Below, piece after piece: positions 20,385 to 49,708 of a stretch of DNA of 64,000 nt. The first letter of the stretch is position 1, and the number at the start of each line of letters is the position of its first letter. Origin of the DNA: a virus (taxonomy: Duplodnaviria > Caudoviricetes); IMG/VR virus record IMGVR_UViG_3300020156_000029, positions 208 through 64,207 of that record; one strand, written 5' to 3'. Under the pieces are notes generated by a model. It ran no database searches. It saw only the letters and a program-made list of their open reading frames with translations, and was not told the origin of the DNA. The translations under genes were made by a program, and so were the position numbers.

Positions 20385-21224
20385 ATGGCTAACTCGCGCG
20401 CGTGGCAACGCGCTAAGGCGGTCCTCGCGACTGCAGAGGATTTGACGACTACGGCCGTCATCTCCGCACCCACTGGCCAGGTCGGCCACACCTACGCCAG
20501 CGCCGCACCGGCGGGATGGGTCTTCGCGGCCGGTCGGACGATCGGTAGCGCTGCCTCCGGCGCGACTGAGCGGGCCAACGCCGACACGGCGGCCCTGTTC
20601 GCGCTGCTGTGGGCGCTCGACGCGACCCTGTTCCCGGTCACGACATCGACGGGCGGAGCTTCGACGCGGGGCGCTTCGGCCGCCGCCGACTTCGCGGCGA
20701 ACAAGCGAATCCAGCTTCCCGACCATCGTGGGCGGGTCACGGCCGGCGTCGACAATGTTGGCGGGGCCGCGAACCGGCTGACGTCGGCCGCCGGCGGCGT
20801 GGACGCCACCAAGCTCGGATCGGCCGGCGGAGCGGCGACGCACACTCTGACGACCGCTCAGATGCCGGCTCACGCCCACGGCGTCACCGATCCGGGGCAC
20901 AACCACTCTATTAACGATCCGGGTCACGCGCACACCGCGTCCGATTCCGGCCACGGCCACGGCTCGCGCTGGCAACCGACCGGCGGAAACTACGGCGTCG
21001 TCGCGAGCGGAGGCTCCTACGTCGGTCGTGTCGCGATCACGGACGACACGAACCTCGATCGAGATACGTCGGTAAACACCGCCAACATCACCGTCGCCGC
21101 CGCTGGAACTGGCATTTGGAACTCCGGCAACACGACGAGCATCTCGATCCAGAACAACGGCTCCGGTCAGGCACACCCGAACACCCAGCCCACCGTCTGC
21201 GCGAACCCGATCATCAGGCTCTAG
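20385..21224 (+). CDS. Tail collar domain / short fibre protein
   Basis: 'APAGWVF', 'LPDHRGR', 'THTLTTAQMPAHAH', repeated 'DPGHxH', 'HPNTQPT'. Confidence 0.85.
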   Translation: MANSRAWQRAKAVLATAEDLTTTAVISAPTGQVGHTYASAAPAGWVFAAGRTIGSAASGATERANADTAALFALLWALDATLFPVTTSTGGASTRGASAAADFAANKRIQLPDHRGRVTAGVDNVGGAANRLTSAAGGVDATKLGSAGGAATHTLTTAQMPAHAHGVTDPGHNHSINDPGHAHTASDSGHGHGSRWQPTGGNYGVVASGGSYVGRVAITDDTNLDRDTSVNTANITVAAAGTGIWNSGNTTSISIQNNGSGQAHPNTQPTVCANPIIRL

Positions 21225-21301
21225 GGCTACCGAAACCGCCGCGAACCGTGCGGCACCCCGGCCTATTGTGGGCTCAACCTTTTCTAGGAGGCTTCCGCCA
21301 G

Positions 21302-22744
21302 ATGGCGACCGATTTCCTTCACGGCGTTGAGGTCGTGACCGTCGACGGCGGTCCTCGCCCGATCCAGACCATTCGCTCGGCCGTTATCGGCCTGATCGGC
21401 ACCGCGCCCGACGCCGACGCCCAGAAGTTCCCGCTGGACACCCCGGTCCTCGTCAACTCGCGCGGCGGTTACGCCGGCATCGGCGCGGGCGGCACCCTGG
21501 CCCCCGCCCTGTCGGGCATCTTCGAGCAGTTCTCCCCGTTCGTCGTGGTGATCCGCGTCGAGGAGGGCGAGAACGCGGGCGAGACCGTCGCCAACGTCAT
21601 CGGCGGTGTGGACGTGAACACCGGCGAACTGACCGGCGTTCAGGCCTTCCGCAAGTCCGAGACCGAGACCGGCCTGATGCCGATGTTGCTGGTCGCCCCG
21701 AGCTTCACGAGCAATCGCCCGAGCGGCGTGACGGCCGTGGCTGTCGCCACCCAGGGCGTCGGTTACGACACGGCCCCGACCGTGACCTTCGCCGGCGGCG
21801 GCACCGACACGAACAAGATTCTGCCGACCGCTCACGCGGTGCTCGGCACCGGCACCGACGCCGGCAAGGTCGTGTCCATCGTGATCGACAATCCCGGTTA
21901 CGCCCTGACCGAGGCCCCGACCGTTTCGCTGACGGGTGGCTCGGCCGAGACGCCGGCGACCCTGGGCGCTGTGACCTACGCCGCCGGGCCGAACCCGGTC
22001 GTGACCGCGCTCCTGCCCGTCGCCAATCAGTTCCGCGCCACCATCCTCGCCGAGGGTCCGTCGACGACCGACGCCGCCGCCATCGCCTATCGCGGCGATT
22101 GGGGCTCGCGCCGGGTCTACATCGTCGATCCGAAGGTCAAGGTCTATGACGCCGACCCCGAGGTCGCCGCCTATGTGTCGCAGCCAAACTCGGCCCGCGT
22201 CGCCGGCCTGATCGCCCGAATCGACCACGAGATCGGCTTCTGGAAGTCGCCCTCGAACGAGGTCGTCAACGGCGTCGGCGGCCTGGACCGCGCGATTGAT
22301 TGGGCGCTGGGCGACCCGAACACGCGCGCCAACCTCCTGAACGAGAACGAGGTCGCGACCTTCATCCGCGACGACGGCTGGCGTCTGTGGGGCAACCGCA
22401 CCGCCTCCGACGATCCGAAGTATGCCTTCCTGAGCGTGGCCCGCACCGCCGACATGATCGACCTGTCGATCCAGAAGGCGCACCGCTGGGCCGTCGATCG
22501 GGTCATCAACAAGGCCTATTTCGAGGACGTCACCGCCTCGGTGAACGGTTACCTCCGCACCCTGGAAGCGCGCGGCGCGATCCTGGGCGGCAAGTGCTGG
22601 GTCGACCCCGACTTCAACACGTCGGCCGACATCACCTCGGGCAAGGCGACCTTCAGCTACGACTTCACTCCGCCGTACCCGGCCGAGCGCGTCACCTTCC
22701 GTTCGTCGATCACCGACGAATACATCACCTCGATCTTCGCTTAA
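21302..22744 (+). CDS. Contractile tail sheath protein (P2 FI family)
   Basis: 'FLHGVEV', 'IGLIGTAPDAD', 'GFWKSPSN', 'GWRLWGNRT', 'PYPAERVTF'; RBS AGGAGG. Confidence 0.95.
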   Translation: MATDFLHGVEVVTVDGGPRPIQTIRSAVIGLIGTAPDADAQKFPLDTPVLVNSRGGYAGIGAGGTLAPALSGIFEQFSPFVVVIRVEEGENAGETVANVIGGVDVNTGELTGVQAFRKSETETGLMPMLLVAPSFTSNRPSGVTAVAVATQGVGYDTAPTVTFAGGGTDTNKILPTAHAVLGTGTDAGKVVSIVIDNPGYALTEAPTVSLTGGSAETPATLGAVTYAAGPNPVVTALLPVANQFRATILAEGPSTTDAAAIAYRGDWGSRRVYIVDPKVKVYDADPEVAAYVSQPNSARVAGLIARIDHEIGFWKSPSNEVVNGVGGLDRAIDWALGDPNTRANLLNENEVATFIRDDGWRLWGNRTASDDPKYAFLSVARTADMIDLSIQKAHRWAVDRVINKAYFEDVTASVNGYLRTLEARGAILGGKCWVDPDFNTSADITSGKATFSYDFTPPYPAERVTFRSSITDEYITSIFA

Positions 22745-23716: not shown

Positions 23717-26089
23717 ATGGCTCGCGGCTTATCGGTCTTCGTTAACATTGGCGCAAGGGTCGGCTCCTCGGTGGGGTCGGCCGCCGCCGCGACCGAGCGC
23801 CGCTTCGGCCAGATGAATCGTCGGCTCCGCGTCATGGCGGCCGAGACCTCCGCACACATGCGCGCCACCGAGCGCCAGTGGGGCTCGATCCGCCGCAACG
23901 CCAGCGACTTCGCGATGGGCGTCAGCGCGCCCATGGGCGTCCTGGCGGGCCTGGGGGCGAAGACCGCCTACGAGTGGGCTCAGGTCGGGAACAACCTTCA
24001 GGCCGTCACTCAGATGACGCACGAGCAGCGTAAGGCCGTCGAAGCCGCCGCTCGCTCGCAGATCGGCAACCCCGTCAACAACCTCCGCGCCGGCCTGGAC
24101 CTGGGTCGCACCGGCCTGGCCCCGGATGAGATCGCGGCCGGCCTTCCGATCGCCGTGCGACTGGCCCGCTCCGACCCGGAGAGCGTTGATCAGGCCCAGG
24201 CGGCCGACATCGTCACGAACATCCTCAAGGGGATGCGGATGCCGATTGGCGAACTCGGCCGGGCGGCCGACGTGATCGCCTACGCCGCCGCGCAATCGTC
24301 GTCCGACGTCCGCCTGATGGGCGAGAGCTTCAAGTATGCGGGGCCGCTGGCCGCCCGCGCCGGCACTTCGATCGAGGAGGCCGCCGCCGCCTTCATGACG
24401 ATGGCCGACGCGGGCATCAAGGGCTCCGAGTCGGGAGTGGCCTTCCGGTCCATGCTGGTCCGCATGATCAAGCTGCCGAAGCCCGCCGCCGCCGTGCTCG
24501 CGCGCTACAACATGCAGATCAGCGACTACGTCAAGTTGTCGAACGCACCTTCCGGCCAGGGCATCATCAACAGCCTGAAGGCCTCGGGTATCGCGGCCGG
24601 CGGCGCGGCCTCCGAGCTTGATCGCATCCTTGGGTCCAATCTTGCCGGGGCCGACCTCGTCGAGGCGCTGACGAGCGCGGTTTCGCGCGGGATCGAGGGC
24701 GGCGCGGACGCCGTCGATCGCGAGATGTTGTCGACGGTGATCAGCGACGCGCTGATCGGGAGCGCCGACAAGATCAACTGGCGCAAGTTCATCGCCGACG
24801 CGCGCGCGAAGGGATGGACGACCGGCGACATCGTCAACTTCTTCGACACGCGCCAAGGCGCGCGCCTGGCCACCCTGTTCGGCGACGACCTCGAGAACAC
24901 TCTGTCCAAGATGAAGGGACAGGGCGGCTCTAGCGGCTGGCTCGACAAGATGTTCGCCCTTCAGAATCAGGGCGTCGTCGGGTCGATGCAACGCCTGGCG
25001 CAGTCGATGGGGAAACTCATCATCACGATCTCCGAGGCGGGCGTGATCGACACGGCCGCCAACGCGATCGACAAGCTGGCCAACGGCATCTCGGCGCTCG
25101 GCAAGTCGAACCCCGCGCTCCTGAAGTTCGGCACCTACGCCGTGCTGGCGCTGGCCGTGCTCGGCCCTCTGGGCTGGCTCATGGGCGGCGTCGTCGCCGG
25201 TTTCCGTCTGCTCGGCGGCGCGGTGATGTTCCTTGGCCGCATGGCGGCGGGACCGCTCGGACGCTTCGCCGGCATGGTGACTCGTCTGTGGCGGCTTGGC
25301 GGCTTGGTCGCGGCCATCGGCGGGCGCGCCGCGCTCATCCCCCTGCTGGCCCCCCTGGGCCTCCTCGGCGTCGCCCTTGGGGCTGTCGCCCTCGCCGTCG
25401 CGTGGATCGTCGCCAAATGGAGCGGCATCAAGGCCTTCTTCTCCGGCATGAAGGAGGGCTTTGTCGAGGCGGTCGGACCCGAGGGCATGGCGTCCATCCA
25501 GAAGTTCGGCGAGGCGCTGCGCTGGGTTGCCGACGTTCTGTTCACGCCGTGGAAGATGCTGGCCGGTGCGATCGGTGCAGTGTTCAACTGGATCGGCCAG
25601 TTGTTCGCGCCAGCGGAGACCGAGAAGTGGCGATCCGGGGGCGAGAGCTTCGGCCGCGTGATCGGCGGGATGGTCAAGGGCCTCACCGGGTTCATCGACC
25701 TGATCACGACCGGCATCAACAAGATTCGCGAGTTCTTCGGGGCAAGCAACGCCGGCGGAGCGGCCGGGGCGGCCATTGGCGCTCAGATGGGCGCGGCCAC
25801 GACCCGCCAGCGCGGCGGCGGCCTCGGGCGCGGCTCCCTGGCGCTCGTCGGCGAGCGCGGGCCGGAACTGTTCGCCTCCGGCCGCTCGGGTACGGTGATC
25901 CCGGCGCGGGCGACGGCGGCGCTGATCGCGGCCATGTCTGGCGGCATCCCGGTCCAGAGCCAGGCCGCGCCGATCCAGACGGGCGACATCCATATCCACG
26001 GGGCGACCGATCCGGCCGCGACGGCCCAGGCTGTTCGTGCTGAACTGAAGCGTCTTCAGCGCGAACAGCGCGCAGGGTTGCACGACTGA
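23717..26089 (+). CDS. Tail tape measure protein (TP901 core)
   Basis: 'MGESFKYAGP', 'GIKGSESGVAFR', hydrophobic middle region, 'LVGERGPELF'. Confidence 0.93.
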   Translation: MARGLSVFVNIGARVGSSVGSAAAATERRFGQMNRRLRVMAAETSAHMRATERQWGSIRRNASDFAMGVSAPMGVLAGLGAKTAYEWAQVGNNLQAVTQMTHEQRKAVEAAARSQIGNPVNNLRAGLDLGRTGLAPDEIAAGLPIAVRLARSDPESVDQAQAADIVTNILKGMRMPIGELGRAADVIAYAAAQSSSDVRLMGESFKYAGPLAARAGTSIEEAAAAFMTMADAGIKGSESGVAFRSMLVRMIKLPKPAAAVLARYNMQISDYVKLSNAPSGQGIINSLKASGIAAGGAASELDRILGSNLAGADLVEALTSAVSRGIEGGADAVDREMLSTVISDALIGSADKINWRKFIADARAKGWTTGDIVNFFDTRQGARLATLFGDDLENTLSKMKGQGGSSGWLDKMFALQNQGVVGSMQRLAQSMGKLIITISEAGVIDTAANAIDKLANGISALGKSNPALLKFGTYAVLALAVLGPLGWLMGGVVAGFRLLGGAVMFLGRMAAGPLGRFAGMVTRLWRLGGLVAAIGGRAALIPLLAPLGLLGVALGAVALAVAWIVAKWSGIKAFFSGMKEGFVEAVGPEGMASIQKFGEALRWVADVLFTPWKMLAGAIGAVFNWIGQLFAPAETEKWRSGGESFGRVIGGMVKGLTGFIDLITTGINKIREFFGASNAGGAAGAAIGAQMGAATTRQRGGGLGRGSLALVGERGPELFASGRSGTVIPARATAALIAAMSGGIPVQSQAAPIQTGDIHIHGATDPAATAQAVRAELKRLQREQRAGLHD

Positions 26090-29511: not shown

Positions 29512-30723
29512 TTGAGCACCATCGACGAGAAGCTGAAGGACTACGCGACGCCGCGTCAGTCCGAGATCATCGACGCCCTTAACGCGGCGGCCGGCAACGA
29601 GAGCGCGGCGGCCCGCGCCCTGAGCGTGGCCCGCCAGACGGTGCAGAGCGCCGTGCGAGAGGTGAAGAAGAAGGCGGCACGGGCTGGCTATGCCCCCGGC
29701 CACTTCAAGGACGGCGTCGCCCCCGGTTACCTGATGGGGAAGGTGACGGTCCACCGCGACGCGGCTGGCCAGGTCGTCCAGACCTGGGAGCGCCAGTCGC
29801 CGGAGGAGGCCGATCGTCTCGCCGCCGTCCTCGAGGCGGTTCGCGAAGCGGCCGAAGACCTCCCCCGCCTCGCACCGCTGGCCGCGCCGGCGAGCACGCT
29901 GAAGCACCTCCTGAACCTCTACGTCTTCACGGACTACCACCTCGGCATGAGGGCCTGGGCGGAGGAGGGCGGCGCGGACTGGAACCTCGAGATCGCCGAG
30001 CGGATGGTCGTCGAAGCGTTCGAGCACATGATCGCCTCGGCCCCGGCCGCTCGGGTCGGCTTCATCGGCCAGCTTGGCGACTTCCTGCACTTCGATTCGC
30101 TCCTGGCGGTGACGCCGACGAGCCGGCACGTCCTTGACGCCTCGTCGCACTACAAGGAGGTCGTCCGCGCCGCCATCCGCATCATGCGGCGGCTGATCGA
30201 CTTTGCGCTCCACCGGCACGAGGAGGTCGTCGTCCTGGCGGCCGAGGGGAATCACGACCTGATCGGCGGCGGTGTCTGGCTCCCCGAGCTTGTCCGCGCG
30301 CTCTACGAGAACGAGCCCCGCGTCACGATCGTCGACAGCGCCACGCCCTACTACGCCTATGAGTGGGGCTCGACGATGCTGGCCTTCCATCACGGCCACA
30401 TGAAGAAGCTCGAGACCCTCCCGCTCGTCTTCGCCGAGCGCTACGCCGAGATGTGGGGCCGCACCAAGAAGCGCTACGCCCACGCCGGCCACTACCACCA
30501 CGAGGTCGAGAAGAAGGACGTCGGAGGGATGCGGGTCACCCAGCACCCGACCCTGGCCCCGAACGACAGCCACTCGGCGCGCGGCGGCTATGCGGCGAAT
30601 CAACAGACCTCGGTCATCACCTATCACGAGCGCTTCGGGAAGGTGGCTGAGAACGTGGTGACGCCCGAGATGCTGACGGGCTTCGACGAGCCGGTGGGCG
30701 CGGGACGGCTGGGGCTGCGGTGA
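29512..30723 (+). CDS. HTH-fused calcineurin-like metallophosphoesterase
   Basis: N-terminal HTH 'GNESAAARALSVARQTV'; motifs DYH, GDFLH, GNHD, HHGH, GHYH. Confidence 0.8.
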   Translation: MSTIDEKLKDYATPRQSEIIDALNAAAGNESAAARALSVARQTVQSAVREVKKKAARAGYAPGHFKDGVAPGYLMGKVTVHRDAAGQVVQTWERQSPEEADRLAAVLEAVREAAEDLPRLAPLAAPASTLKHLLNLYVFTDYHLGMRAWAEEGGADWNLEIAERMVVEAFEHMIASAPAARVGFIGQLGDFLHFDSLLAVTPTSRHVLDASSHYKEVVRAAIRIMRRLIDFALHRHEEVVVLAAEGNHDLIGGGVWLPELVRALYENEPRVTIVDSATPYYAYEWGSTMLAFHHGHMKKLETLPLVFAERYAEMWGRTKKRYAHAGHYHHEVEKKDVGGMRVTQHPTLAPNDSHSARGGYAANQQTSVITYHERFGKVAENVVTPEMLTGFDEPVGAGRLGLR

Positions 30724-31046
30724 TGATCAAGCTGGCCATCTCCTTCGCCCTGGCCGTCGCAACGGCCGCTCCCGTGACCCAATACGTCTCGCTCCCGCCG
30801 TCCGAGTTTCAGGGCGGCGCTCCCATCGCAGTCAGGCTGATCACCGGCCCGCGCGCCGACATCGACCCCGCGTGCAAGTTCCTGGGCGGCCAGGTCGGGC
30901 CGGGCATGGTCATCGCGGCCTGTTACAAGAACGGCGTCATCGTCGCGCCCGATCCGTGCGACCCGTTCTTCGCCGGCGAGAAGTTCGCGGACCTGATGTG
31001 CCACGAGATCGGGCACGCGCGGGGTTGGAGCCACGAGGTCGAGTAG
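30720..31046 (+). CDS. Small exported protein with HExxH motif
   Basis: Signal peptide, four Cys, 'CHEIGHARGWSH'. Confidence 0.6.
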   Translation: MMIKLAISFALAVATAAPVTQYVSLPPSEFQGGAPIAVRLITGPRADIDPACKFLGGQVGPGMVIAACYKNGVIVAPDPCDPFFAGEKFADLMCHEIGHARGWSHEVE

Positions 31047-31189
31047 CGACCCAACCCGCCCCGCGCTTCGGGCGGGCCGCGCTATCGTTCTCTCGTCACC
31101 CCGGCCACGCGGACAGCCCTCGACCTCTCCTGCGATTGTGGCTCTCGTCCCGCTGAATGTCGGGGTGACACCCCCCAAGAAAATAGTCC

Positions 31190-31217
31190 TTGACGCGGGA
31201 ATGTGACCCGTTATGGT
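31190..31217 (+). promoter_or_regulatory. Sigma70-type promoter for tmRNA
   Basis: TTGACG-N16-TATGGT just upstream of the tmRNA acceptor piece. Confidence 0.65.
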
Positions 31218-31223
31218 GTTGCT

Positions 31224-31490
31224 TGTTCGGGTCTGGACACGGGTGCGAATCCCGTCACCTCCACCACGAACGCACAGACGGGGGATCGCTCCCCGTCGCC
31301 AGAGAGCGAAGCTGGCGGCATCTGAACCGGACTGTGCGTTCTTGATGGGGGTGATTAGTTTCGACAGGCCCAGGGCGCGGTAGCCAATCCGCACACATTG
31401 AACTGTGAACGACAACTACGACCTGTCTCAGGCCATCGCGGCCTAAGCGGAGCCCGCCGAGGGCTTGGCAACAGAACCTCGGCACCTCAT
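31224..31490 (+). ncRNA. ssrA: Circularly permuted (two-piece) tmRNA
   Basis: Acceptor piece with T arm ACGGG-TGCGAAT-CCCGT and CACCTCC-ACCA (ends 31266) precedes the 5' piece GGGGGTGA (31347); the stem gives the G3-U70 Ala determinant; tag ORF 31405-31446 VNDNYDLSQAIAA*; outer ends approximate. Confidence 0.92.
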
Positions 31491-31499
31491 TCGGGCCTC

Positions 31500-32005
31500 G
31501 GCCCGCATCGCGCAGACCCCGCGTCGTAGGGTCGACGGCCGAGAGAGAACGGCAAGCGCCGAGGGTCTACTCCCCCTCGATTGACGGGCTCGCAGGCCCC
31601 GGAGAGCGCGATGTCTGCGGATTATTCGCCCGAGAGGGCGTCCGATGAGTGGAGAGCGACCACTCCTTCCCGAGCCCAGGGAGTAGCACGCTCAGAGGGT
31701 GACCCGAGAGGGAGCGCCGGCTAGGAGCTTGCCGGTAGAGGGGTGGATTAGCTGGGATTCAAAACCCTGGCTTCGTCCACCCCTCGATCCAGTTGCCCCT
31801 TGGGCGAGGCCGCCAGCCGGAGGCGGGTTAGAAGTGGATGGACGTGGGGCCTTAGGGCCTTGGTGAGATGTCGTGAAAGGGCGGCGGTCGGTCCTGGGTT
31901 CGATTCCCAGTGCGGAGGCAACTCCGCGTAGCTCAGCCTGGTAGAGCAACCGCGACAGCCGCGCGACAAGGCCGGGCATCACCCGGCGGGCGTTACAGTA
32001 AGCGG
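31500..32005 (+). ncRNA. Large ornate structured RNA with permuted tRNA-like domain (GOLLD/YrlA-like)
   Basis: No credible ORF; many GNRA-capped hairpins; CTACTCCC(31567)/GGGAGTAG(31679) long-range pairing; T arm, capped acceptor stem, D arm order at 31884-31953; followed by a terminator; ends approximate. Confidence 0.75.
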
Positions 32006-32010
32006 CCCGC

Positions 32011-32045
32011 AAGGCCCCGGTCTTCGGATCGGGGCCTTCTCCTTA
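32011..32045 (+). terminator. Intrinsic terminator of the ncRNA cluster
   Basis: AAGGCCCCGGTC-TTCG-GATCGGGGCCTT followed by CTCCTTAT. Confidence 0.75.
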
Positions 32046-32104
32046 TATATGAGAGCCTCGCTTTAGACAGGCGCGGCGTCTGGCCATCGTGACACAATAG
32101 GCGC

Positions 32105-32367
32105 TCAAGCCGTCCGTCCCTCGCGATGATCCCAGGTCGCCGACAGGATCGCCCAACTAGGCCGTGGGGTGCGGGAGCTTTCAAACGTGGCGCTGCGGCG
32201 ATCGAGCGGCGACCCCATCCCGAGGGCGGAAAACCGGGCGCTGGCTCCCAGCGAAAGTCGACGGCCCATTTGGCGGCCATGCCGGCAACAAGCACGAGGG
32301 GCGGCCCGCACCTGGCGGGGAATGCTTCGGCCACGGCCCGACACGGGAGTCGCCCCTCGACCTTCTT
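32105..32367 (+). ncRNA. Unidentified structured RNA candidate
   Basis: Nested helices and loop-loop complementarities (see findings); no credible ORF; strand inferred from G-U pairs. Confidence 0.45.
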
Positions 32368-32419
32368 GGCCCAACCGAACCACCGGATTAATCCAGAACG
32401 TCAGCCTAGCGCGCGGACC

Positions 32420-32635
32420 CGTTCTGTTTTACAGTGCTCTATCGGCTCCTAGTGCGGGCAGGAGCCGGGTTTTACACCTAAGTCGTTGAGAAACCACGTA
32501 TGTTATCAGCTTCCCAAGCTGAATGTCGTGGGTTCGATTCCCATCGCCCGCTCCAAAATCCCTAGACATTAGAACGACATAGCTCGGTGGTCATTTCGGC
32601 CAACGCCCGAGTTTTACACCGATTTTACAGGTCTA
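32420..32635. mobile_element. attP: core identical in form to the 3' part of tRNA-Gly(CCC), with arm-type repeats
   Basis: 32506-32555 TCAGC-TTCCCAA-GCTGA-ATGTC-GTGGG-TTCGATT-CCCAT-CGCCCGC-TCCA lacks a 5' half; TTTTACA direct repeats at 32427, 32470, 32612, 32623. Confidence 0.88.
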
Positions 32636-32727
32636 TGATTTGTTCTGTTCGCGGTTCGATCTCCGTTGACGACGGAATAAAACGGTGTATGCAATGACAC
32701 ATCGTTTCATTCCCAACGGATTTTCAG

Positions 32728-34454
32728 ATGACCGAGAGACTTCAGTCCGGCGACGCCCGAGTCGGGGACGTCGTCACGCCACTTAGCTCAATCTCGCAGC
32801 ATGAAGCGGAGCCCCGATTCAGGGCCGGCGAGCGGCTCACGGTGACAGCCGCGTCCGCACGTTCCGCACTCCTGACGGTGATGGACGATGGCGGAAAGAG
32901 CGGAACTTGGTCCTGCTCATGCTTTCGGTTCGTCGAGCCGAGGTCGGCCGAGCAGCTTCTCCACCGCGCACTCGGAGATGTCATTGAGGCGCTCGCGCCC
33001 CTGACGGTGGTGGGCCGCCCCGTCGTCTCGCTGGATACGGCGCTGACCTCGGCAGTCGCAAAAGCCAACACCCTCCTCGAACAAGGGCCGGGCAGCGAGG
33101 TCGCGGATTTGCGCGCGGCGCTGCAAGCTGAATGGGCCTGGCACGAACTGCGCTGGGATTTGGCTCTCGACGAAGCCCGTGAATGCTCTCATCGCGAGGA
33201 GAAGGGCGCGGCGGCCTCGGCGGCGCGGTCGGCGAACAAGCACCGGGAGCGCATGGACGCGATCGAGGCCGTGTTGCCGCGCCAGGCTCGGCAGGCGGAG
33301 GCGGCGTGATGCTGGTCGAGGAACTCCGCAAGGCGCTCGCCAAAATGCCCGGCGAGATGAACGTCTATCTCACCGGCGGCAACGGCATCGCCTCCGCCAA
33401 GCACCTGTTCAAACTCAACCTCGTCGGCGTTGAACAGTCGTGCGAACTTCGGACCTATTTCGAGGACCACACGCCCGACATGCAGGACTCGTTGATCGAG
33501 AGGCACACTGGATTCAACACCCGCGAGGAGTTGATCGACGCCTACAAGAAGCTTGTCGAGGCGCAGACGAAATCGGCAGAGCCCGCCCGATGACCGACCG
33601 CTACCTCCTGATGAAGCGCGGCCTCTACTATCGGCCCGACGCCATGGGCTACACCGGAATCAGGGACAACGCCGGCCGCTATCCGAAGGCCGAGGCGGAG
33701 ACCCACGTCCACCCCGAGTCGGGCGTGACGATGATCCCCGAGGGCCGCGCGGACGAGTTTTCGCCGGCGTGCTGCGACGACCTGGCGCGCGATCACCTGA
33801 AGAAACAACGGGACGACTTGCGGGCGGCGCTGGACCTGGCGCTGATCCGCCTCGGCGCGCTCGAGCCGGGTGACAGCCGGGCGGTCAGCGACGAGTTCGT
33901 CGCCATGGCCGCCGCTGGCACGCCGCACCACAACGACGAGGGGCGCGAGATCATCCGGCGCGCGATCGAGAGGGAGTCCGCCCGATGAGAGCCGTCCTCA
34001 CCAACGCGATCGAGAAGGAGGACGGCCCGTCCCCCGCCGACATCCGGCTCCGCGATGAGTTCGCCATGGCGGCGCTGACCGGGTTTCTCGCCAACCCGAA
34101 TCTGACAAGTGCTGGCGACCTTCAATCGGCGGAGTCCGCCTATATCTGGGCCGACGCCATGATGAAGGCGCGGGAGCCCGATCCACTCGGCCGCGACGCC
34201 AGCGGTGTCACGCCTGGGATGCGCGACTACCTGGCCAAGGGGCGGGAGGGGGTGCGGTCGTGAGTAACCGCCGCAAGGCCGAGCGTCGAGTCGAGATCGC
34301 GCGACTGCGCGAGGAGGGTGCCGAGGCGGCACGCGCTGGCCGGCACGTTCAAACCTGTCCCCAGCGTTACATGCGGACGGAAAACCGGGCGCATTGGGAG
34401 CGAGGATATTGGGAAGCGGTTGAGCGAGAGGGGCTCCCGCACTTCCCCACCTAA
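32728..34454 (+). CDS. Operon of five small hypothetical genes (32728-33309, 33309-33593, 33590-33988, 33985-34263, 34260-34454)
   Basis: Consecutive start/stop overlaps downstream of a TTGAC promoter at 32666; 'LRDEFAMAALTG' is a common phage motif. Confidence 0.65.
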
Positions 34455-35491
34455 CCCGCCGCCGCCCGCCCCAGCTTCTCGATCTTCGCGCGGAGACGCT
34501 TGGCCCGGTTGACGTAGCGGTCGATGATCCCCTCGACCTTCTCCTTCTTCCACCCGAGCATCTCCGCGATGTCCTCGGTGGTGAGGCCGGCCAGATAGAA
34601 CTTGGTGGCGGCGGTGCCGCGCGCGTCGTGGAAATGGAGCGTCCAGCCCGCCTCCTCGAGGCCGACCCCCTCCGGTACGTCGTCGCCGAGCGCCGCCCAG
34701 CACGCCTTATTCCACGATGAGCCGAACCCGCCGGCCCAGGGCGTCCCGTCCGTCGACGTCAGGACGTGGGTCGAGCGCTTGGGGATTTCGGCCAGGAGCG
34801 CGCGAAGCTCGTCGTAGAGCGGCACGACGTATTCCAGCTTGCCGCGCGACTTGCCGGTCGGCATGACGATGGCCAGGTCGCCGATGTGGCCCCATTGCAG
34901 CTTGAGGAGGTCGCCTTGCCGGAGGCCAGTCAGGCACGCCAGCCGGAGCGCCCACATGATCTCGGGGCTAGCCGTCTTAGCGAACGACGTCAGGTCTTCG
35001 GGCGTCCAGATGTGGTCGGCCCGGTCAGCGCTGTAGAGGTTCGCGATCCCGAAGCACGGGTTCGACTTGAGGCGGCCCTCCTCGACGGCGTAGGACAGCA
35101 CGGCGGAGAGCACCTGTTTCCCCATGTCGGCCGCGCGCGGGTTGTCCTTCCACTTCGAGCGCCACTTCTTGATGACCTGGCGCACCTCGGGCTTGTCGAA
35201 GGTCTTCACCGACAGCTTGCCGAGGCCCTCGTTGACCCGGTCGAGCCACGGACCCCAGTTCTTTTTCGTGCTGGCGGCCAGGCCCGCGTAGGCGTCGCTC
35301 TCCTTATAGTCGGCGATCAGGCCCGACAGCTTCGAGGCGTCGTCGGGGCCGGCCGTGAGCGCGTGCCAGGCGGCGACGAACTCCTTCGAGCCCGGCTGGC
35401 CGGGGAGGCGCGGGCCGCCGCGCCAGGCGTAATAGTATGTCCGCCCCTTAGCGTTTACGCGGTGAAGGCCCTTGAGGTCGATCGTCGCCAT
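34451..35491 (-). CDS. int: Tyrosine integrase
   Basis: 'LTGLRQGDL', 'FHDARGT' (HxxR), 'LGW', catalytic 'RY'; N-terminal 'YYYAWRGGPRL' typical of alphaproteobacterial phage integrases. Confidence 0.93.
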   Translation of the reverse strand: MATIDLKGLHRVNAKGRTYYYAWRGGPRLPGQPGSKEFVAAWHALTAGPDDASKLSGLIADYKESDAYAGLAASTKKNWGPWLDRVNEGLGKLSVKTFDKPEVRQVIKKWRSKWKDNPRAADMGKQVLSAVLSYAVEEGRLKSNPCFGIANLYSADRADHIWTPEDLTSFAKTASPEIMWALRLACLTGLRQGDLLKLQWGHIGDLAIVMPTGKSRGKLEYVVPLYDELRALLAEIPKRSTHVLTSTDGTPWAGGFGSSWNKACWAALGDDVPEGVGLEEAGWTLHFHDARGTAATKFYLAGLTTEDIAEMLGWKKEKVEGIIDRYVNRAKRLRAKIEKLGRAAAG

Positions 35492-40593: not shown

Positions 40594-41730
40594 TCACCCC
40601 GCCATGATCGAGTTGGAGCGAAGGGCTGCGATGCCCGCCGCGTATTCCGGCGCGCCGCCCGTGACGATGACGTGGTTCAGCCGCGACCCGTGCTGACGAA
40701 TCTCGATGTCGTCGTCGGGAGCGCCGGCCAGGATGGACATGAGGTAGCTCGGGGCGAACGCGGCGAACGTGAACTCGCCTTCGATCTCCGCCTCGATCTC
40801 GTCGCGGACCTCGTTGCCGTCGACGTTCGCGCCCTTCACCTCGAGCGCGCCGTCGCGCGGGATCAGGATGACGCACGCCCACTGGCCTTCCTTCGCCGAG
40901 CCGAGCACGGCGCGATCGACGGCCTCGGCTAGGTCGGGGCGGTTGACGCGCGCGGTCGCCGCCGTCTCGCCCTGCAGAACGACTTCGACGTTCGCCGGGA
41001 AGGTGCCGTCGATCAGCTTCGAGCCCAGGCGGTGCGCGTAGTTCGAGAAGGCGACCGTGTTCTCGCCGGCGTGGATCGTGACCTCATCCTCGCCCTTGAA
41101 GATGCGGAGAGCGGCGTCGATCGCCTCGTTCGGCAGGATCATCGCCGGCATCCCCTCGGCGTCCACCTCGGCAAAGGTGCGGCCGACGACCTTGGTGTTC
41201 GTGGCGGCCAGCTTCAGGCGGCCGTCCTCGAAGGTCGCCGACACGCCCTGAAGCTGGGGATAGATGGGGCCGGTCGGCTCCGTCATCGGGCGGACGCGGC
41301 CGAAGTGCGTGGCGAAGTCCTGGCCCTTCATCGTGAAGGTGACCGCGCCGGAGGCGTCGACCCAGGCGGGGAACTGATCGGCCGCTAGGGTCGGGAGCTT
41401 GGAGTTCGACCGCCCGCACTTCACGGCGAGGTGGCGGGTCTGGGGGCCGGTCTCGATGATCTCGAGCAAGATGTCCTTGTCGCGCGGGAGGCGGTTGATC
41501 AGGGCGGTGAAGGCGGCGGCGTTGACGCACACCGCGCCCTCTCCCTCGACCTTGGCCAGCGCCGTCGACTCGGCGAAACGGTCGAGGTCCGACGAGGCGA
41601 CCTTCAGGAAGTCGCCCTCGGCGACGAGGCGGAGGTGCGTCAGGATCGGCGCGGGGCTGATCTTCGGCGCGACGGCCCCGCCCTTGGCCAGGGCGGCCGA
41701 GAGATTCGGCTGGGTGATGAGGAGCTTCAT
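40594..41730 (-). CDS. dnaN: DNA polymerase III beta sliding clamp homologue
   Basis: 378 aa; 'PILTHL', 'SSDLD', 'LPTLAADQFP', 'AATN', 'SKLIDGTFP', 'AFAPSYL'. Confidence 0.88.
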   Translation of the reverse strand: MKLLITQPNLSAALAKGGAVAPKISPAPILTHLRLVAEGDFLKVASSDLDRFAESTALAKVEGEGAVCVNAAAFTALINRLPRDKDILLEIIETGPQTRHLAVKCGRSNSKLPTLAADQFPAWVDASGAVTFTMKGQDFATHFGRVRPMTEPTGPIYPQLQGVSATFEDGRLKLAATNTKVVGRTFAEVDAEGMPAMILPNEAIDAALRIFKGEDEVTIHAGENTVAFSNYAHRLGSKLIDGTFPANVEVVLQGETAATARVNRPDLAEAVDRAVLGSAKEGQWACVILIPRDGALEVKGANVDGNEVRDEIEAEIEGEFTFAAFAPSYLMSILAGAPDDDIEIRQHGSRLNHVIVTGGAPEYAAGIAALRSNSIMAG

Positions 41731-43281: not shown

Positions 43282-43632
43282 ATGGTACTCGGGATGACGC
43301 AAGCCCCAGATGAGAACGACTCTCTGCGGGCCGAGATTGAGCGCCTTCGCGCCGTCCTGGCCGATACGCAAGCGAGCGTCCCCGCTGGGTGGCGGTTAAC
43401 TGCGACGGAGGACAAGGTGTTCCGTGTTCTCCTGGCGGTCGATTGCGCGACCCGAGCGGCCATCGCCCAGGGCGCGGGACTCACTGAAAACCGTTCGATC
43501 GACGTCCACCTTACCCGCATCCGCAAGAAACTCACGCCCTTCGGTGTGGAAATCGAAACGGTGCGCTCTCGCGGCTGGCGGCTGGTCGGCCGGGCCGGTT
43601 GGTGCGGCGCATTGAACTCCCAAGCCGCCTAA
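43282..43632 (+). CDS. Orphan OmpR/PhoB(CtrA)-type winged-helix protein
   Basis: 'LTATEDKVFRVL...RSIDVHLTRIRKKL...IETVRSRGWRL'; no receiver domain. Confidence 0.85.
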   Translation: MVLGMTQAPDENDSLRAEIERLRAVLADTQASVPAGWRLTATEDKVFRVLLAVDCATRAAIAQGAGLTENRSIDVHLTRIRKKLTPFGVEIETVRSRGWRLVGRAGWCGALNSQAA

Positions 43633-45444: not shown

Positions 45445-46434
45445 TTGGCCCCGCTCCCGCAACCTCGCTCGAGCATTCCCGACCTGATCTATGCCGCCTA
45501 TGAAGCGTCGGCGTCGGATTGGGACGGCCTAGGCTTCTCGCCGTCCATGCTGGGGACCGAGTGCGACCGCGCGCTTTGGTATCTGTTCCGCTGGGCGTGC
45601 GCGAAGGAGAAGTTCAGCGGCCGGATGCTCCGGCTGTTCCAGACGGGCCACATCGAAGAAGACCGGATCATCGACGACCTGAAGCGCATCGGGCTCGAGG
45701 TCCACGAGGTCGATCCGTCGACCGGCAAGCAATGGCTGGCCCGCGCGATCGGCGGGCACCTTCGCGGCAAACTCGACGGCATCATCACGGCCGGCGTCCC
45801 CGAGGCCCCAGCAAAAACTCACGTCGTCGAGTGCAAGTCGCACTCCGAGAAGTCGTTCGGCAAGGTCAAGATGCACGGCGTGCTCAAGGGCAAGTTCGAG
45901 CATTGGGTCCAGTGCCAGGTCTACATGCACGTTCGCGGCATCGACCGCGCCCTCTACGCCGCCGTCAACAAGAACACCGACGAAGTCTATTACGAGCGCG
46001 TCCGCTACGATCATGAGTTCTGTTCGCTCCTGTTCGCGCGGCTGCAGCGCGTCATCCTGACCGATCAGCCGCCGGCCCCGATCAGCGAGAAGCGCTCCGC
46101 GCCCGACTGCCGCTTTTGCAAGTCGAAGCCGCTGTGCGTCGGCGAGAGCTTCGCGCGCCTCAACTGCCGCACCTGTCTCCATTCCACTCCGCTCCTCGAC
46201 GGCGACGCCGCGTGGACGTGCGCCCGCTGGGCCAAGCCGCTCCTGGCGGATGAACAGCGCGCCGCGTGCCCCTCGCACCTGTTCATCCCCGGCCTCGTGC
46301 CGGGCGAGCAAATCGACGTCGACGAGCAAGCCGAGACCGTCACCTACCGCCTGGCCAACGGCGACCTCTGGGTCGACGGCCAGGACGCCTCTCATGAACC
46401 CATCGCCAATCCCGAGTCCGAAGATGCTGAGTAA
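45445..46434 (+). CDS. Cas4-like PD-(D/E)xK exonuclease
   Basis: 'CDRALWY', 'GKLDG', 'VECKS', 'QCQVYM', C-terminal Cys cluster 'CRFC...CRTC'. Confidence 0.85.
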   Translation: MAPLPQPRSSIPDLIYAAYEASASDWDGLGFSPSMLGTECDRALWYLFRWACAKEKFSGRMLRLFQTGHIEEDRIIDDLKRIGLEVHEVDPSTGKQWLARAIGGHLRGKLDGIITAGVPEAPAKTHVVECKSHSEKSFGKVKMHGVLKGKFEHWVQCQVYMHVRGIDRALYAAVNKNTDEVYYERVRYDHEFCSLLFARLQRVILTDQPPAPISEKRSAPDCRFCKSKPLCVGESFARLNCRTCLHSTPLLDGDAAWTCARWAKPLLADEQRAACPSHLFIPGLVPGEQIDVDEQAETVTYRLANGDLWVDGQDASHEPIANPESEDAE

Positions 46435-46954
46435 CGCCATCGCCATGTCGCCAGCCGCCCCGATCGGCTGGACGCCCGCCCGCGTCGCCGAGATGGAGCG
46501 GCTGTGGCGCGAGAACCATTCGTTCAGCGAGATCGCACGCACCCTCGGCGGCGGCCTGACCCGCAACGCCGTGATCGGCAAGGCGCACCGCATGGGGCTG
46601 ACCCGGCCGCCCGAGATGGCGCGGGCCATGGCGGAGATTCAGCCGAAGTCGCGCAAGCGCCAAGAGGTCACCGCCTCCGCCCGCTGGAAGGACGACGCCG
46701 GCGAGAAGAAAGGGCTTCCGGTCGAGAAGGTCGAGACCGCCAAGCCCCTCATGTCGCGCGTGTTCGGCCGCGAGTGCGCCTGGCCCGTCGACGAGGGCAT
46801 GGCGTGCTGCGCGCCGGTGGTCGAGAGCGGCCAGTATTGCGCCGCGCACAAGGCCCGTGCCTACACGGGGCCGGGCAAGCCCTTCCGTGGCCTCGCCGAG
46901 TTCGGCCAGCAATCCGGCGATCCCGAACGGTGGTTCGGCGAGGGGTCGTGCTGA
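46424..46954 (+). CDS. gcrA: GcrA-family cell-cycle regulator homologue
   Basis: 'WTPARVAEMERLW...SFSEIARTLGG.LTRNAVIGKAHRMGL' and C-terminal 'CAWP...CCAP...YCAAH'. Confidence 0.9.
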   Translation: MLSNAIAMSPAAPIGWTPARVAEMERLWRENHSFSEIARTLGGGLTRNAVIGKAHRMGLTRPPEMARAMAEIQPKSRKRQEVTASARWKDDAGEKKGLPVEKVETAKPLMSRVFGRECAWPVDEGMACCAPVVESGQYCAAHKARAYTGPGKPFRGLAEFGQQSGDPERWFGEGSC

Positions 46955-47721: not shown

Positions 47722-47933
47722 GCCTAGACCGCCACGACCTCGCGCTGAACGTCATTCAGGCCAACGCCGGCAAGCGCGCCGAGGAGATCATCAACGCGCT
47801 CTATCGCCAGGGCCTCGCCATTGTCCCTCTCGCCGCCCCGCCCGGCACGGACGGCACGCGCGTCCTGAACCTGTCGAAGACGCCCGGCGAAATCTGGACG
47901 GCCCAGGTCGAGCACGCGCGGGTGCGCGCCTGA
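47718..47933 (+). CDS. Hypothetical protein
   Basis: Coupled between the MTase and helicase genes. Confidence 0.55.
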   Translation: MSLDRHDLALNVIQANAGKRAEEIINALYRQGLAIVPLAAPPGTDGTRVLNLSKTPGEIWTAQVEHARVRA

Positions 47934-49708
47934 TGTGGACGCCGCGACCCTATCAGGCCGAGGCAATCGACGCCGCGCTTGACGCGCTGGCGGGCGGCGA
48001 GGACGCGCTTCTTGTCGTCCCCACGGGCGGCGGCAAGTCGGGCATCATCGGCACGATCACCAAGGCGCTCTACCACGACTTCAGCCTCCGCATCGTCAAC
48101 TGCGCGCACGTCGCCGAACTCGTCGGCCAGGCCTACGACGAACTGATCGGCATGTGGGAGTGGGCTCCGGCCGGCATCTACTCGGCAGGCCTGAACCGTC
48201 GTGAGATGCACTCGCAAATCCTGTTCGCCGGCATCGCCTCAATCTTCAAGAAGGCGCACCTCCTGGGCCAGGTCGACGTGCTGATGGTCGACGAGGCGCA
48301 CATGATCCCGCGCGAGGGCAACGGGCAATATCGGCGCTTCATCTCCGACCTTCGCGAGATGAACCCCGACATGCGCCTCCTGGGCCTGACGGCGACGCCC
48401 TACCGCCTGGGCTCCGGCCGCCTCGACGAGGACCGCGTCACCAAGAGCGGCGCGGTTGAGCCGGCGCTGTTCCCCAGCGTGACCTACGAGGTGTCGATCC
48501 GCCACCTGATCGACGAAGGCTGGCTCGCGCCGCTGACGACGAAGGACACCGGCGACCTGGCGATCGACACCTCGGGCGTCGGCTCGAGCGGCGGCGACTT
48601 CAAGATCGGCGAGCTTTCGGGCGCGGTCGACAAGCCCGAACTCATCCGCGACATCTGCGCGGACGTCATCGCCAAGGGCAAGGATCGCCGCTCGTGGCTG
48701 ATCTTCACGCCCGGCGTCTCGGACGCCGAGCACTTCCACGAGGAGATGACCCGCCGGGGTTTTCGCGGCGGCGTTATCACCGGCGAGACGCCGACCGGCG
48801 AGCGCAAGCGGCTGATCGAGGACTTCAAGAACTACCGCATCCGCTACCTCGTGAACTGCGGCGTGCTCACCACGGGCTTCGACCACAAGGGCGTCGACCT
48901 CCTGGCGATGGTGCGGCCGACGAAGTCGACGGCGCTCTACGTCCAGATATGCGGACGCGGCACGCGCCCGCTCTACGAGCCCGGTTTCAATCCGAACACG
49001 GCGACGGCCGAGGAGCGCAAGGCGTCGATCGCGCGCGGGCCGAAGCCCAACTGCCTCGTGCTCGATTACGCCAAGAACATCAACTATCACGGCCCCGTCG
49101 ACATGGTGCAGCCGCGCAAGCCCGGCTCCGGCAAGGGCGAGGCCCCGGTGAAGACCTGTCCGCCGCATCTGGGCGGGTGCTCGTCGGTGGTTCACGCCTC
49201 CGTCATGGAGTGCCCTGACTGCGGCTTTCTGTGGGAGCGCCAGGTCTCCGAGAAGATCACCCGGCGCGCGGCCGAGGTGCCGATCCTGTCGAAGTCCGAG
49301 CCGCTGTGGATCAAGGTCCAGCAACGCACGTTCCGGCGTCACGAGAAACTCGGAAAGCCGCCGAGCGTCAAGGTCGAATACCGCTCCGGCATCACGATCT
49401 ATCCCGAGTGGATCGCGGTCGAGAACGAACGCGCGCGCGGCCTGGTCTCGGCGTGGTGGAAGCGCGCCGGTGGGGCTGAACCGGCCCCGACGTCGGTGAC
49501 CGAGATGCTAGACCGCGTCGGCGAGCTTCGGCCCATCGACGAGATCAGGGTCGAGGCCGAGGGCAAATACTGGCGCGTCACCGGCTGGCGGCACGCCCAG
49601 GGCCAGGCTCCCGAGGGCGAGGCGGACAAGTCGGCCTCGTGGGCTCCCCAGCGCTACGACCTGAAGCGCGACACATACGCTGACCTAGACGCGGATATTC
49701 CCTTCTGA
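47933..49708 (+). CDS. SF2 DEAH-box helicase (RadD/YejH-like) with zinc finger
   Basis: 'PTGGGKS', 'DEAH', 'TATPYR', 'LTTGFD', 'QICGRGTR', C-terminal Cys motifs. Confidence 0.93.
   Translation: MWTPRPYQAEAIDAALDALAGGEDALLVVPTGGGKSGIIGTITKALYHDFSLRIVNCAHVAELVGQAYDELIGMWEWAPAGIYSAGLNRREMHSQILFAGIASIFKKAHLLGQVDVLMVDEAHMIPREGNGQYRRFISDLREMNPDMRLLGLTATPYRLGSGRLDEDRVTKSGAVEPALFPSVTYEVSIRHLIDEGWLAPLTTKDTGDLAIDTSGVGSSGGDFKIGELSGAVDKPELIRDICADVIAKGKDRRSWLIFTPGVSDAEHFHEEMTRRGFRGGVITGETPTGERKRLIEDFKNYRIRYLVNCGVLTTGFDHKGVDLLAMVRPTKSTALYVQICGRGTRPLYEPGFNPNTATAEERKASIARGPKPNCLVLDYAKNINYHGPVDMVQPRKPGSGKGEAPVKTCPPHLGGCSSVVHASVMECPDCGFLWERQVSEKITRRAAEVPILSKSEPLWIKVQQRTFRRHEKLGKPPSVKVEYRSGITIYPEWIAVENERARGLVSAWWKRAGGAEPAPTSVTEMLDRVGELRPIDEIRVEAEGKYWRVTGWRHAQGQAPEGEADKSASWAPQRYDLKRDTYADLDADIPF

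What the first reader, a model, noticed from the sequence alone, without database searches (positions are those of the whole stretch)
31190..31490. Phage-encoded, miniaturised two-piece (permuted) tmRNA with its own tag
Seen: promoter TTGACG-N16-TATGGT, then a very short (~40 nt) acceptor piece ending CACCTCC-ACCA (31266). An 80-nt intervening segment closed by a 10-bp helix (GAACGCACAG 31268 / CTGTGCGTTC 31332) follows, then the coding piece starting GGGGGTGATTAGTTTCGAC. The acceptor stem has G3-U70, and GGGTCTG pairs with CAGGCCC. The tag reads (A)VNDNYDLSQAIAA with a GTG resume codon instead of the usual GCN. Known: permuted tmRNA is the alphaproteobacterial form, the Caulobacter tag is ANDNFAEEFAVAA, and Caulobacter tmRNA affects the timing of replication initiation. 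Inference: a stream-lined phage tmRNA that may keep ribosome rescue running, or redirect tagged products, during infection. It is not an attachment-site remnant because attP is tRNA-Gly.
Basis: partly seen in the sequence, partly recalled or inferred. Interest (0 to 1): 0.85.

Follow-up and report, generated by a model that had tools for sequence, protein, structure and literature searches.

The report
Compact two-piece tmRNA in soil phage
A temperate soil phage carries its own stripped-down, back-to-front copy of the bacterial ribosome-rescue RNA (tmRNA), one of a small family that moves between unrelated phages and starts its tag with valine or leucine instead of alanine.

Summary
Window 31225-31489 is a real circularly permuted (two-piece) tmRNA gene inside a complete 64-kb temperate phage. 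It scores 76.2 bits on Rfam tmRNA_permuted (gathering 47) but falls below the alpha, beta and cyano clade models. ARAGORN misses it at default settings.

It is not the attachment site: attP is a separate 3' fragment of tRNA-Gly(CCC) at 32506-32556.

It is small: about 42 + 143 nt, against 83 + 213 nt published for Caulobacter.

Three full-length relatives (two viral contigs with different structural modules, one metagenome contig) share the layout. Together they give 9 compensatory base pairs, against 3.3 in shuffles. Contigs from other sequencing runs match only 31224/5-31489.

The codon in the resume position is GUG here and CUG in every relative. It is GCN in 70 of 70 other viral and 33 of 33 host-order tmRNAs parsed.

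Phage two-piece tmRNAs are already published (Melnitz, pelagimyophages). This is therefore a new variant of a known kind, not a new kind. This scan has also noted similar compact phage tmRNAs on other DNA.

Expression, processing, charging and tagging are untested.

The parts
31190..31217 (+). sigma70-like promoter, TTGACG-N16-TATGGT
   Evidence: It is the only such site in 31000-32700 (shuffle mean 0.2). Similar boxes sit at the same place in L170 and L172. Its function has not been shown.
31225..31489 (+). conserved tmRNA precursor unit (265 nt)
   Evidence: Contigs of four other runs match only within 31224/5-31489 and diverge outside it. Folded alone: MFE -120.8 kcal/mol, z -4.07, 0 of 200 shuffles as stable.
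31225..31266 (+). acceptor piece (about 42 nt): P2a 5' strand 31229-31235, T-arm 31239-31255, 3' acceptor strand 31256-31262, A73 31263, CCA 31264-31266
   Evidence: The 5' end is inferred from the promoter and from where homology begins; it has not been mapped.
31267..31346 (+). 80-nt intervening segment, closed by the helix 31268-31277 / 31332-31341; expected to be excised
   Evidence: In one search, 5 of the 9 pairs in this helix change on both sides. Excision is inferred from knowledge of two-piece tmRNA.
31347..31489 (+). coding piece (about 143 nt): 5' acceptor strand 31347-31353, P2a 3' strand 31365-31371, pre-tag hairpin 31377-31392, tag frame, terminal hairpin 31456-31483 with GGCAACAGAA in its loop
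   Evidence: The terminal-loop motif GCAACAGAA is shared with 30 of 33 host-order ssrA genes.
31405..31446 (+). tag reading frame: GUG resume codon, VNDNYDLSQAIAA, UAA stop
   Evidence: A sits at -4, as the A86 ruler of PMC2481249 requires. In relatives the frame ends in Ala-Ala then a stop, despite indels.
32506..32556 (+). attP core: 3' fragment of tRNA-Gly(CCC); context, not part of the tmRNA
   Evidence: RF00005 26.1 bits. 98% identical over 51 nt to a tRNA-Gly(CCC) gene in G006.
34451..35491 (-). tyrosine-type integrase (context)
   Evidence: phrog_1 integrase, E 2.2e-33.

Best explanation
Window 31225-31489 is a real two-piece tmRNA (ssrA) gene carried as cargo by a temperate tailed phage whose host is of the Caulobacteraceae type. 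It is under selection for its RNA structure. It belongs to a compact lineage that moves between unrelated soil phages as a self-contained unit of about 265 nt.

Most likely mechanism:
1. It is transcribed from its own sigma70-type promoter (inferred).
2. The 80-nt hairpin between CCA and G1 is removed by host tRNA-processing enzymes. That leaves a 42-nt acceptor piece and a 143-nt coding piece, held together by the 7-bp acceptor stem and the 6-bp P2a helix (inferred).
3. Host AlaRS charges it through G3-U70, A73 and CCA (the sequence features are shown; charging is inferred).
4. Host SmpB and EF-Tu deliver it to ribosomes stalled on non-stop mRNA, because the phage encodes no SmpB (its absence is shown).
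5. Translation resumes at GUG, four nucleotides after the conserved A. It appends (A)VNDNYDLSQAIAA, an ssrA-like degron that keeps the alphaproteobacterial NDN start and the hydrophobic-Ala-Ala end (inferred).

The benefit would be extra ribosome-rescue capacity during infection or lysogeny.
For: - RF04321 scores 76.2 bits against a gathering score of 47, over the full model.
- Relaxed ARAGORN finds the permuted tRNA domain at the same place.
- Three full-length relatives, L169, L170 and L172, score 66.6-71.4 bits.
- On the 4-sequence alignment of 38 pairs, 99.3% of cells are paired. Nine pairs change on both sides, against 3.3 +/- 1.3 in shuffles (0 of 500 reach 9) and 0-1 when partners are slid.
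- RNAalifold recovers the same helices unaided. The single-sequence fold has z -4.07.
- In all four, the tag frame ends in Ala-Ala then a stop despite indels, and A is kept at -4.
- The unit sits in three different structural-gene contexts. Homology in four other runs stops at 31224/5 and 31489.
- It is not a recent host copy: BLASTN against 401 alphaproteobacterial genomes finds only short stretches of 29-44 nt, in 8 genomes.
- attP is a separate tRNA-Gly fragment.
- The phage has no SmpB.
Against: - There is no expression, end-mapping, charging or tagging evidence. No RNA run is listed for this sequence.
- There are only four full sequences, so the covariation statistics are thin. P2a and the T-arm never vary, which says nothing for or against them.
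- It scores below the gathering thresholds of all three clade models: alpha 43.5 of 50, beta 58.8 of 84, cyano 32 of 70.
- The closest phage relatives by neighbouring gene lack it. This holds for 36 loci by regex and 4 whole records by covariance model, so it is dispensable.
- The window alone has G rather than U at -5, and GUG rather than the family's CUG.
- An Ile-Ala-Ala end may be a weaker protease signal than Leu-Ala-Ala (recalled, not tested).
- Calling NUG the resume codon rests on homology and on a rule established in E. coli.
Confidence: 0.75

Rival explanations
1. It is a functional RNA that works against or around host trans-translation instead of simply adding to it. It could compete for host SmpB and stalled ribosomes, with a tag altered at its start (Val/Leu) and its end (IAA, or QAA in L172). 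Rescued products would then be handled differently from host-tagged ones. Alternatively, the compact form could escape host control of tmRNA stability.
For: - The family-wide switch from GCN to NUG contrasts with 70 of 70 other viral and 33 of 33 host-order tmRNAs that use GCN.
- All inter-piece helices outside P2a are lost, as is the space for host-type pseudoknots.
- A phage tRNA-like-domain-only tmRNA mimic (mycobacteriophage DS6A) and the inhibition of tmRNA by such a molecule are in print (passages read).
- The phage carries several cell-cycle-type regulators, for example GcrA at 64.5 bits.
Against: - The NDN start, the Ala-Ala end, A at -4, G3-U70 and CCA are all kept. A working tagger would need these; a pure decoy would not.
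Confidence: 0.14
2. It is a captured host ssrA copy that is decaying: a non-functional passenger picked up by imprecise excision or recombination.
For: - It scores below all clade-specific thresholds.
- It is shorter than every host gene examined.
- It has a non-canonical resume codon.
- It is absent from the nearest phage relatives.
Against: - Compensatory changes maintain four helices.
- Tag frames remain open and end in AA-stop in all four members despite about 20% divergence.
- The same unit, with sharp boundaries, occurs in several unrelated contexts.
- No sampled host gene resembles it beyond short stretches of 29-44 nt.
Confidence: 0.07
3. It is an attachment-site remnant of a phage that integrates into host ssrA.
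For: - Integration into ssrA is common, and fragments of ssrA occur in prophages (passages read).
- An integrase lies 3 kb away.
Against: - The whole gene is present, not just a 3' part.
- The real attP candidate is the tRNA-Gly(CCC) 3' fragment at 32506-32556, 98% identical to a host-type gene.
- Relatives sit between head and tail genes, or between the tape measure and the baseplate hub, far from any integrase seen.
- It shows no long identity to any sampled ssrA.
Confidence: 0.02

Closest known systems
Two-piece tmRNA of Alphaproteobacteria (Caulobacter ssrA; Rfam RF01849 alpha_tmRNA)
   Same: - Permuted gene order.
- 7-bp acceptor stem with G3-U70 and an encoded CCA.
- UGCGA-type T-loop, as in the Phenylobacterium/Caulobacter-type loci.
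- Tag core Asn-Asp-Asn followed by an aromatic residue.
- Terminal hairpin loop GGCAACAGAA.
   Different: - It scores 43.5 bits, below the threshold of 50; a host gene scores 238.
- It lacks the two extra inter-piece helices and the 5' hairpin of the acceptor piece.
- P2-to-resume spacing is 39 nt against 60-64 nt, and stop-to-loop spacing is 21 nt against 67-75 nt.
- The pieces are about 42 + 143 nt, against 83 + 213 nt published for C. crescentus.
- The resume position reads GUG/CUG, not GCN.
- It is carried by phages.
Phage-encoded two-piece tmRNAs of marine myophages (Melnitz, pelagimyophages; PMC9004378)
   Same: A complete permuted ssrA gene of alphaproteobacterial type, carried by a phage that has no SmpB of its own. 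It is proposed to sustain translation or to tag proteins during infection (passages read).
   Different: - Those are in large lytic T4-like marine phages with low GC, and ARAGORN finds them.
- The 70 low-GC and other viral permuted genes I parsed all use GCN, with spacings of 61-124 nt.
- Ours is in a temperate, 66% GC soil phage.
- Ours is shorter and uses NUG.
- ARAGORN misses it at default settings.
- It has no DNA match among 50,697 GenBank phage records.
Mycobacteriophage tmRNAs (Bxz1 group; DS6A tRNA-like-domain-only form; PMC4131195)
   Same: Phage-borne ssrA-derived genes. DS6A shows that phages can carry reduced forms.
   Different: By my recollection, which no call tested, those are one-piece forms. 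DS6A has no tag frame, whereas ours keeps a conserved tag frame.

Membership tests
Permuted (two-piece) tmRNA, Rfam RF04321 | Score at or above the curated gathering threshold over the full model | tested here: met
   76.2 bits against 47, model positions 1-213. Relatives score 66.6-71.4 bits.
Permuted (two-piece) tmRNA, Rfam RF04321 | Permuted order: T-arm, 3' acceptor strand and CCA lie upstream of the 5' acceptor strand and tag frame | tested here: met
Permuted (two-piece) tmRNA, Rfam RF04321 | Alanine identity set: G3-U70 in a 7-bp acceptor stem, A73, CCA | tested here: met
   Present in all 4 members. One acceptor pair covaries (U-A in the window, C-G in the relatives). Charging itself was not tested.
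Permuted (two-piece) tmRNA, Rfam RF04321 | Tag reading frame set by a conserved A four nucleotides upstream, ending in a hydrophobic-Ala-Ala degron and a stop | tested here: met
   A at -4 in all 4 members, and tags end IAA or QAA then a stop. One departure: the resume codon is GUG/CUG, not GCN.
Permuted (two-piece) tmRNA, Rfam RF04321 | Cleavage into two base-paired pieces; SmpB-dependent tagging | not testable with these tools
   No RNA run is listed. The phage has no SmpB, so the host's would be needed.
alpha_tmRNA (RF01849) | Score at or above 50 bits; extra inter-piece helices and host-type spacing | tested here: not met
   43.5 bits; relatives score 42.5-45.4 bits. Spacings lie far outside the host range.
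[quoted passage not shown] | Score at or above the gathering threshold | tested here: not met
   58.8 against 84; 32 against 70.
Typical two-piece tmRNA architecture (coding piece with PK1 and PK2) | Pseudoknots flanking the tag frame | tested here: inconclusive
   A 4-bp hairpin that covaries replaces PK1, and a 7-bp hairpin follows the tag. I found no conserved second stem by eye, but the tools used here do not predict pseudoknots.
ssrA att-site fragment of an integrating element | A partial gene, identical to the host gene, at the element's attachment site | tested here: not met
   The gene is full length. It has no long identity to any sampled ssrA. attP is the tRNA-Gly(CCC) fragment.
tRNA-like-domain-only phage mimic (DS6A type) | No tag reading frame | tested here: not met
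   A conserved tag frame is present.

The most novel reading that the evidence does not exclude
The compact NUG-resume tmRNA is a phage-adapted lineage, not just a host gene in transit. It would be a ~265-nt cassette with no pseudoknots that hops between unrelated soil phages. It would have been reshaped in two ways. First, its minimal form would depend only on host AlaRS, SmpB and RNase P, and would escape host regulation of tmRNA abundance. Second, its Val/Leu-initiated tag would mark products rescued by the phage differently from host-tagged ones. If so, phages would be running their own version of trans-translation, and this RNA would be a natural minimal tmRNA for defining what the system needs.
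Probability: 0.3. Interest if true: 0.7.

Novelty: new variant of a known kind. Interest (0 to 1): 0.45.

Why it matters
tmRNA is nearly universal in bacteria. Its pseudoknots and alanine resume codon are highly conserved, yet both can be replaced in the laboratory. This family is a natural experiment in which the RNA is cut down to the tRNA-like domain, one hairpin, the tag and a terminal hairpin, and the first tag codon has switched to Val/Leu, while covariation shows that selection continues. It gives a small, testable construct for asking what trans-translation minimally needs. It also lets one ask why temperate phages of Caulobacter-type hosts, where tmRNA is tied to cell-cycle timing, bring their own copy. 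On the practical side, a standard detector (ARAGORN at default settings) misses these genes, so counts of phage tmRNAs are underestimates.

Tried and rejected
- **Rfam outer helix.** Rfam's alignment pairs UAUGG (31212-31216) with a strand in the coding piece. I rejected this because the stretch is the -10 box, lies outside the unit conserved in other runs, and the coding-piece partner instead forms a hairpin that covaries.
- **Exonuclease neighbours.** I expected phages related through the exonuclease next door to carry the gene. None of 36 loci has a tmRNA core by regex. None of 4 whole records (L020, L021, L022, L048) has a covariance-model match.
- **Second copies in host-order genomes.** The table shows 9 genomes with two RF04321 matches. 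I checked 8 and all second matches are partial (model positions 36 to about 100, 28.7-34.2 bits), so they are not tmRNA genes. I did not check G446, which is flagged unpublished. The 151 of 151 tally includes it; no sequence of it was used.
- **Other pattern hits.** L171 is a chance match. L173 and L174 share the T-arm but are longer permuted genes; L173 reads a GCA resume codon, and L174 was not parsed.
- **A kissing interaction.** The pre-tag hairpin loop (CCAA or CCAG) could pair with the terminal loop (UUGG), and RNAalifold proposes a GGGC/GCCC helix enclosing the tag. Neither varies informatively, so I make no claim.
- **Resume at AAC.** This would give (A)NDNY... I rejected it as less likely because it would put U, not A, at -4.
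- **Expression.** No RNA holder is listed for this stretch, and the runs I laid are all contigs, so nothing can be said about expression or RNA ends.
- **Literature.** Searches for 'phage-encoded tmRNA' (0 papers) and for tmRNA + phage + pseudoknot + minimal + two-piece (4 papers, none on this by title or abstract) found no description of such a lineage.
- In one search my regex parsed nothing and the script then failed; I fixed it. The resume-codon counts are invalid because the parser took in-frame upstream starts; one search replaces them. In one search, L172 is mis-parsed by my rule of taking the most downstream candidate. By alignment it reads CTG AAC GAC AAC GAA...

Full report
**What the window is.** The window is bases 208-64207 of a 64,207-base virus record that CheckV rates 100% complete. 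PHROG scans give the following genes:

| Gene | Coordinates |
|---|---|
| large terminase | 999-2975 |
| portal | 3961-5583 |
| major head protein | 7222-8253 |
| tail sheath | 21116-22744 |
| tape measure | 23717-26089 |
| exonuclease | 29512-30723 |
| integrase | 34451-35491, minus strand |
| sliding clamp | 40594-41730, minus strand |
| helicase | 47933-49708 |
| primase | 50755-53133 |

It is a temperate tailed phage at about 66% GC. No GenBank phage record is close to it.

**The observation.** Every coordinate in the finding checks by direct reading. These are the TTGACG-N16-TATGGT promoter, the T-arm, CACCTCC-ACCA ending at 31266, the 10-bp helix 31268-31277 / 31332-31341, GGGGGTG at 31347, the GGGTCTG/CAGGCCC helix, and the frame GTG...TAA at 31405-31446.
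- The promoter is the only sigma70-like site in 31000-32700, against a shuffle mean of 0.2.
- Rfam's permuted-tmRNA model matches over its full length at 76.2 bits, gathering 47.
- ARAGORN finds nothing at default settings. With a relaxed threshold it finds the permuted tRNA-like domain at the same place but chooses another tag, because it expects a GCN resume codon.
- All three clade-specific models fall short: alpha 43.5 of 50, beta 58.8 of 84, cyano 32 of 70. The tRNA-like domain is canonical and the rest is not.

**Not the attachment site.** About 1 kb downstream, window 32506-32556 is 98% identical over 51 nt to the 3' end of a tRNA-Gly(CCC) gene in a Phenylobacterium genome. It is 92-94% identical in three other genomes of the same order. 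A 3' tRNA fragment near an integrase is the usual form of attP. Two further results agree with that host. The only bacterial relative of the neighbouring exonuclease is in Phenylobacterium, at 49% identity. The phage also has a GcrA homologue at 64.5 bits.

**Not a fresh host copy.** BLASTN of 31212-31510 against 401 sampled alphaproteobacterial genomes finds only short stretches of 29-44 nt, in 8 genomes. All 151 of 151 sampled genomes of the host order have one full ssrA at 118-148 bits. The second matches I checked, in 8 genomes, are partial.

**Miniaturisation, measured.** The comparison set is 33 parsed host-order genes out of 37 loci and 70 parsed other viral permuted genes out of 74 loci.

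| Measure | This phage | Host-order ssrA | Other viral permuted |
|---|---|---|---|
| P2 to resume codon | 39 nt | 60-64 nt | 61-124 nt |
| Stop codon to GCAACAGAA loop motif | 21 nt | 67-75 nt | not measured this way |

The host alpha model has a 5' hairpin and two further inter-piece helices (5 and 7 bp) that have no counterpart here. With ends at 31225 and 31489, the pieces are about 42 and 143 nt. The published sizes for Caulobacter crescentus are 83 and 213 nt (PMC1168896, passage read).

**Relatives and selection.** A pattern describing the compact layout found two viral contigs (L169, L170), one metagenome contig (L172) and one chance hit (L171).
- The three relatives score 66.6-71.4 bits on RF04321 and 42.5-45.4 bits on the alpha model, the same profile as ours.
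- Mean column identity in the 4-sequence alignment is 80%.
- RNAalifold recovers P2a, the T-arm, the acceptor stem, the closed intervening hairpin, a pre-tag hairpin and the terminal hairpin without guidance.
- On those six helices (38 pairs), 99.3% of cells pair. Nine pairs change on both sides, against 3.3 +/- 1.3 in shuffles (0 of 500 reach 9) and 0-1 in the slid controls.
- The changes lie in the acceptor stem (1 pair), the intervening helix (5), the pre-tag hairpin (1) and the terminal hairpin (2). P2a and the T-arm are invariant, which is uninformative.
- Four sequences are few, but the signal is consistent. The window's unit folded alone has z -4.07.

**A mobile unit.** In L169 the gene lies between the major head protein and tail proteins. 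In L170 it lies between the tape measure and the baseplate hub of a myovirus whose sheath belongs to a different family. In the window it follows the tail and exonuclease genes. Contigs from four other runs (two soil, one retting, one coded organism) were laid at 80% likeness or better. They match only within 31224/5-31489 and run on into unrelated sequence on either side. The left boundary is 7 nt after the -10 box, and the right boundary is 6 nt after the terminal hairpin. This fits a promoter-proximal start and a transcript-sized unit, but it is not end mapping. The YrlA-like element further downstream is not part of the unit, because none was found in L169, L170 or L172.

**The resume codon.** The codon before the Asn-Asp-Asn core is GUG in the window and CUG in L169, L170 and L172. 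It is also CUG in the X2 and X4 contigs (31405 G>C) and in an X7 contig end. It is GCN in 70 of 70 other viral and 33 of 33 host-order genes, all with U at -5 and A at -4.
- The family keeps A at -4. The relatives keep U at -5, and the window has G there.
- In E. coli, A86 acts as a ruler that sets the frame four nucleotides downstream. U85G and U85C are tolerated, and the pseudoknots and tag template can be replaced (PMC2481249, passages read).
- By that rule and by homology, translation resumes at NUG, giving (A)VNDNYDLSQAIAA here.
- A 2005 survey lists Ala, Gly, Asp, Arg, Ser and Glu as natural first residues, with no Val or Leu (PMC1168896). I could not see newer tables.

**What is known already.** Phage tmRNAs are established, including the mycobacteriophage Bxz1 group, Bacillus phage G and the tRNA-like-domain-only form of DS6A (PMC4131195). 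Phage two-piece tmRNAs are established too. Melnitz and the pelagimyophages carry them, and 53 of 133 unique phage tmRNAs were called two-piece by ARAGORN, 50 of those from aquatic samples (PMC9004378, passages read). The 2025 tmRNA database holds 79 unique bacteriophage sequences (PMC11915505). My own exact-pattern scans found 74 further viral contigs with permuted cores. The kind is therefore known. What I did not find in print is this compact, NUG-resume lineage in temperate high-GC soil phages. Earlier notes of this same scan describe look-alikes on other DNA, including two that share words with this sequence and read a Leu resume codon. Those notes are unverified and I did not test them.

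**Verdict.** This is a new variant of a known kind. The step from sequence to function rests on conserved identity elements, covariation and an intact tag frame. Expression, processing, charging and tagging remain to be shown.

Noticed in passing
window 31868-31972 (+): A YrlA (Y RNA-like) tRNA mimic that falls below threshold: RF02553 40.7 bits against gathering 69, E 1.4e-6. It has a T-arm, a sealed acceptor-like hairpin and a D-arm, and lies about 380 nt after the tmRNA unit. It is absent from the tmRNA relatives L169, L170 and L172.
   Followed up: partly
window 32019-32036 (+): This is the only terminator-like site on the + strand between 31000 and 32700. The tmRNA and the downstream RNA-like stretch might therefore be read through as one transcript. 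No canonical terminator follows the tmRNA itself.
   Followed up: no
window 46424-46954 (+) and 43282-43632 (+): A GcrA cell-cycle regulator homologue (PF07750, 64.5 bits) and a stand-alone OmpR/CtrA-type winged-helix domain (PF00486, 33.1 bits) are encoded by the phage.
   Followed up: partly
L013 / L112 (a viral record classed as provirus): A high-GC record carries a full permuted tmRNA (109.7 bits, tag ANNTVALPMAA) about 8 kb from one end of a 63.6-kb provirus. It could be host ssrA at an integration site and not phage cargo.
   Followed up: no
L173 and L174 (viral contigs): Two further viral contigs share the exact T-arm and acceptor sequence of this family but have longer, different coding pieces. 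L173 reads a GCA resume codon with tag ANDNDSEHGNMLLAA. This suggests the tRNA-like module is shared more widely than the compact coding piece.
   Followed up: no
L002-L019 and L056-L111 (viral contigs): In many low-GC viral permuted tmRNAs the triplets just upstream of the GCA resume codon are in frame and read Val-Asn (GUA AAU). A naive tag parser therefore reports false Val, Ile or Leu starts. This is a caution for automated calls of non-Ala resume codons.
   Followed up: yes
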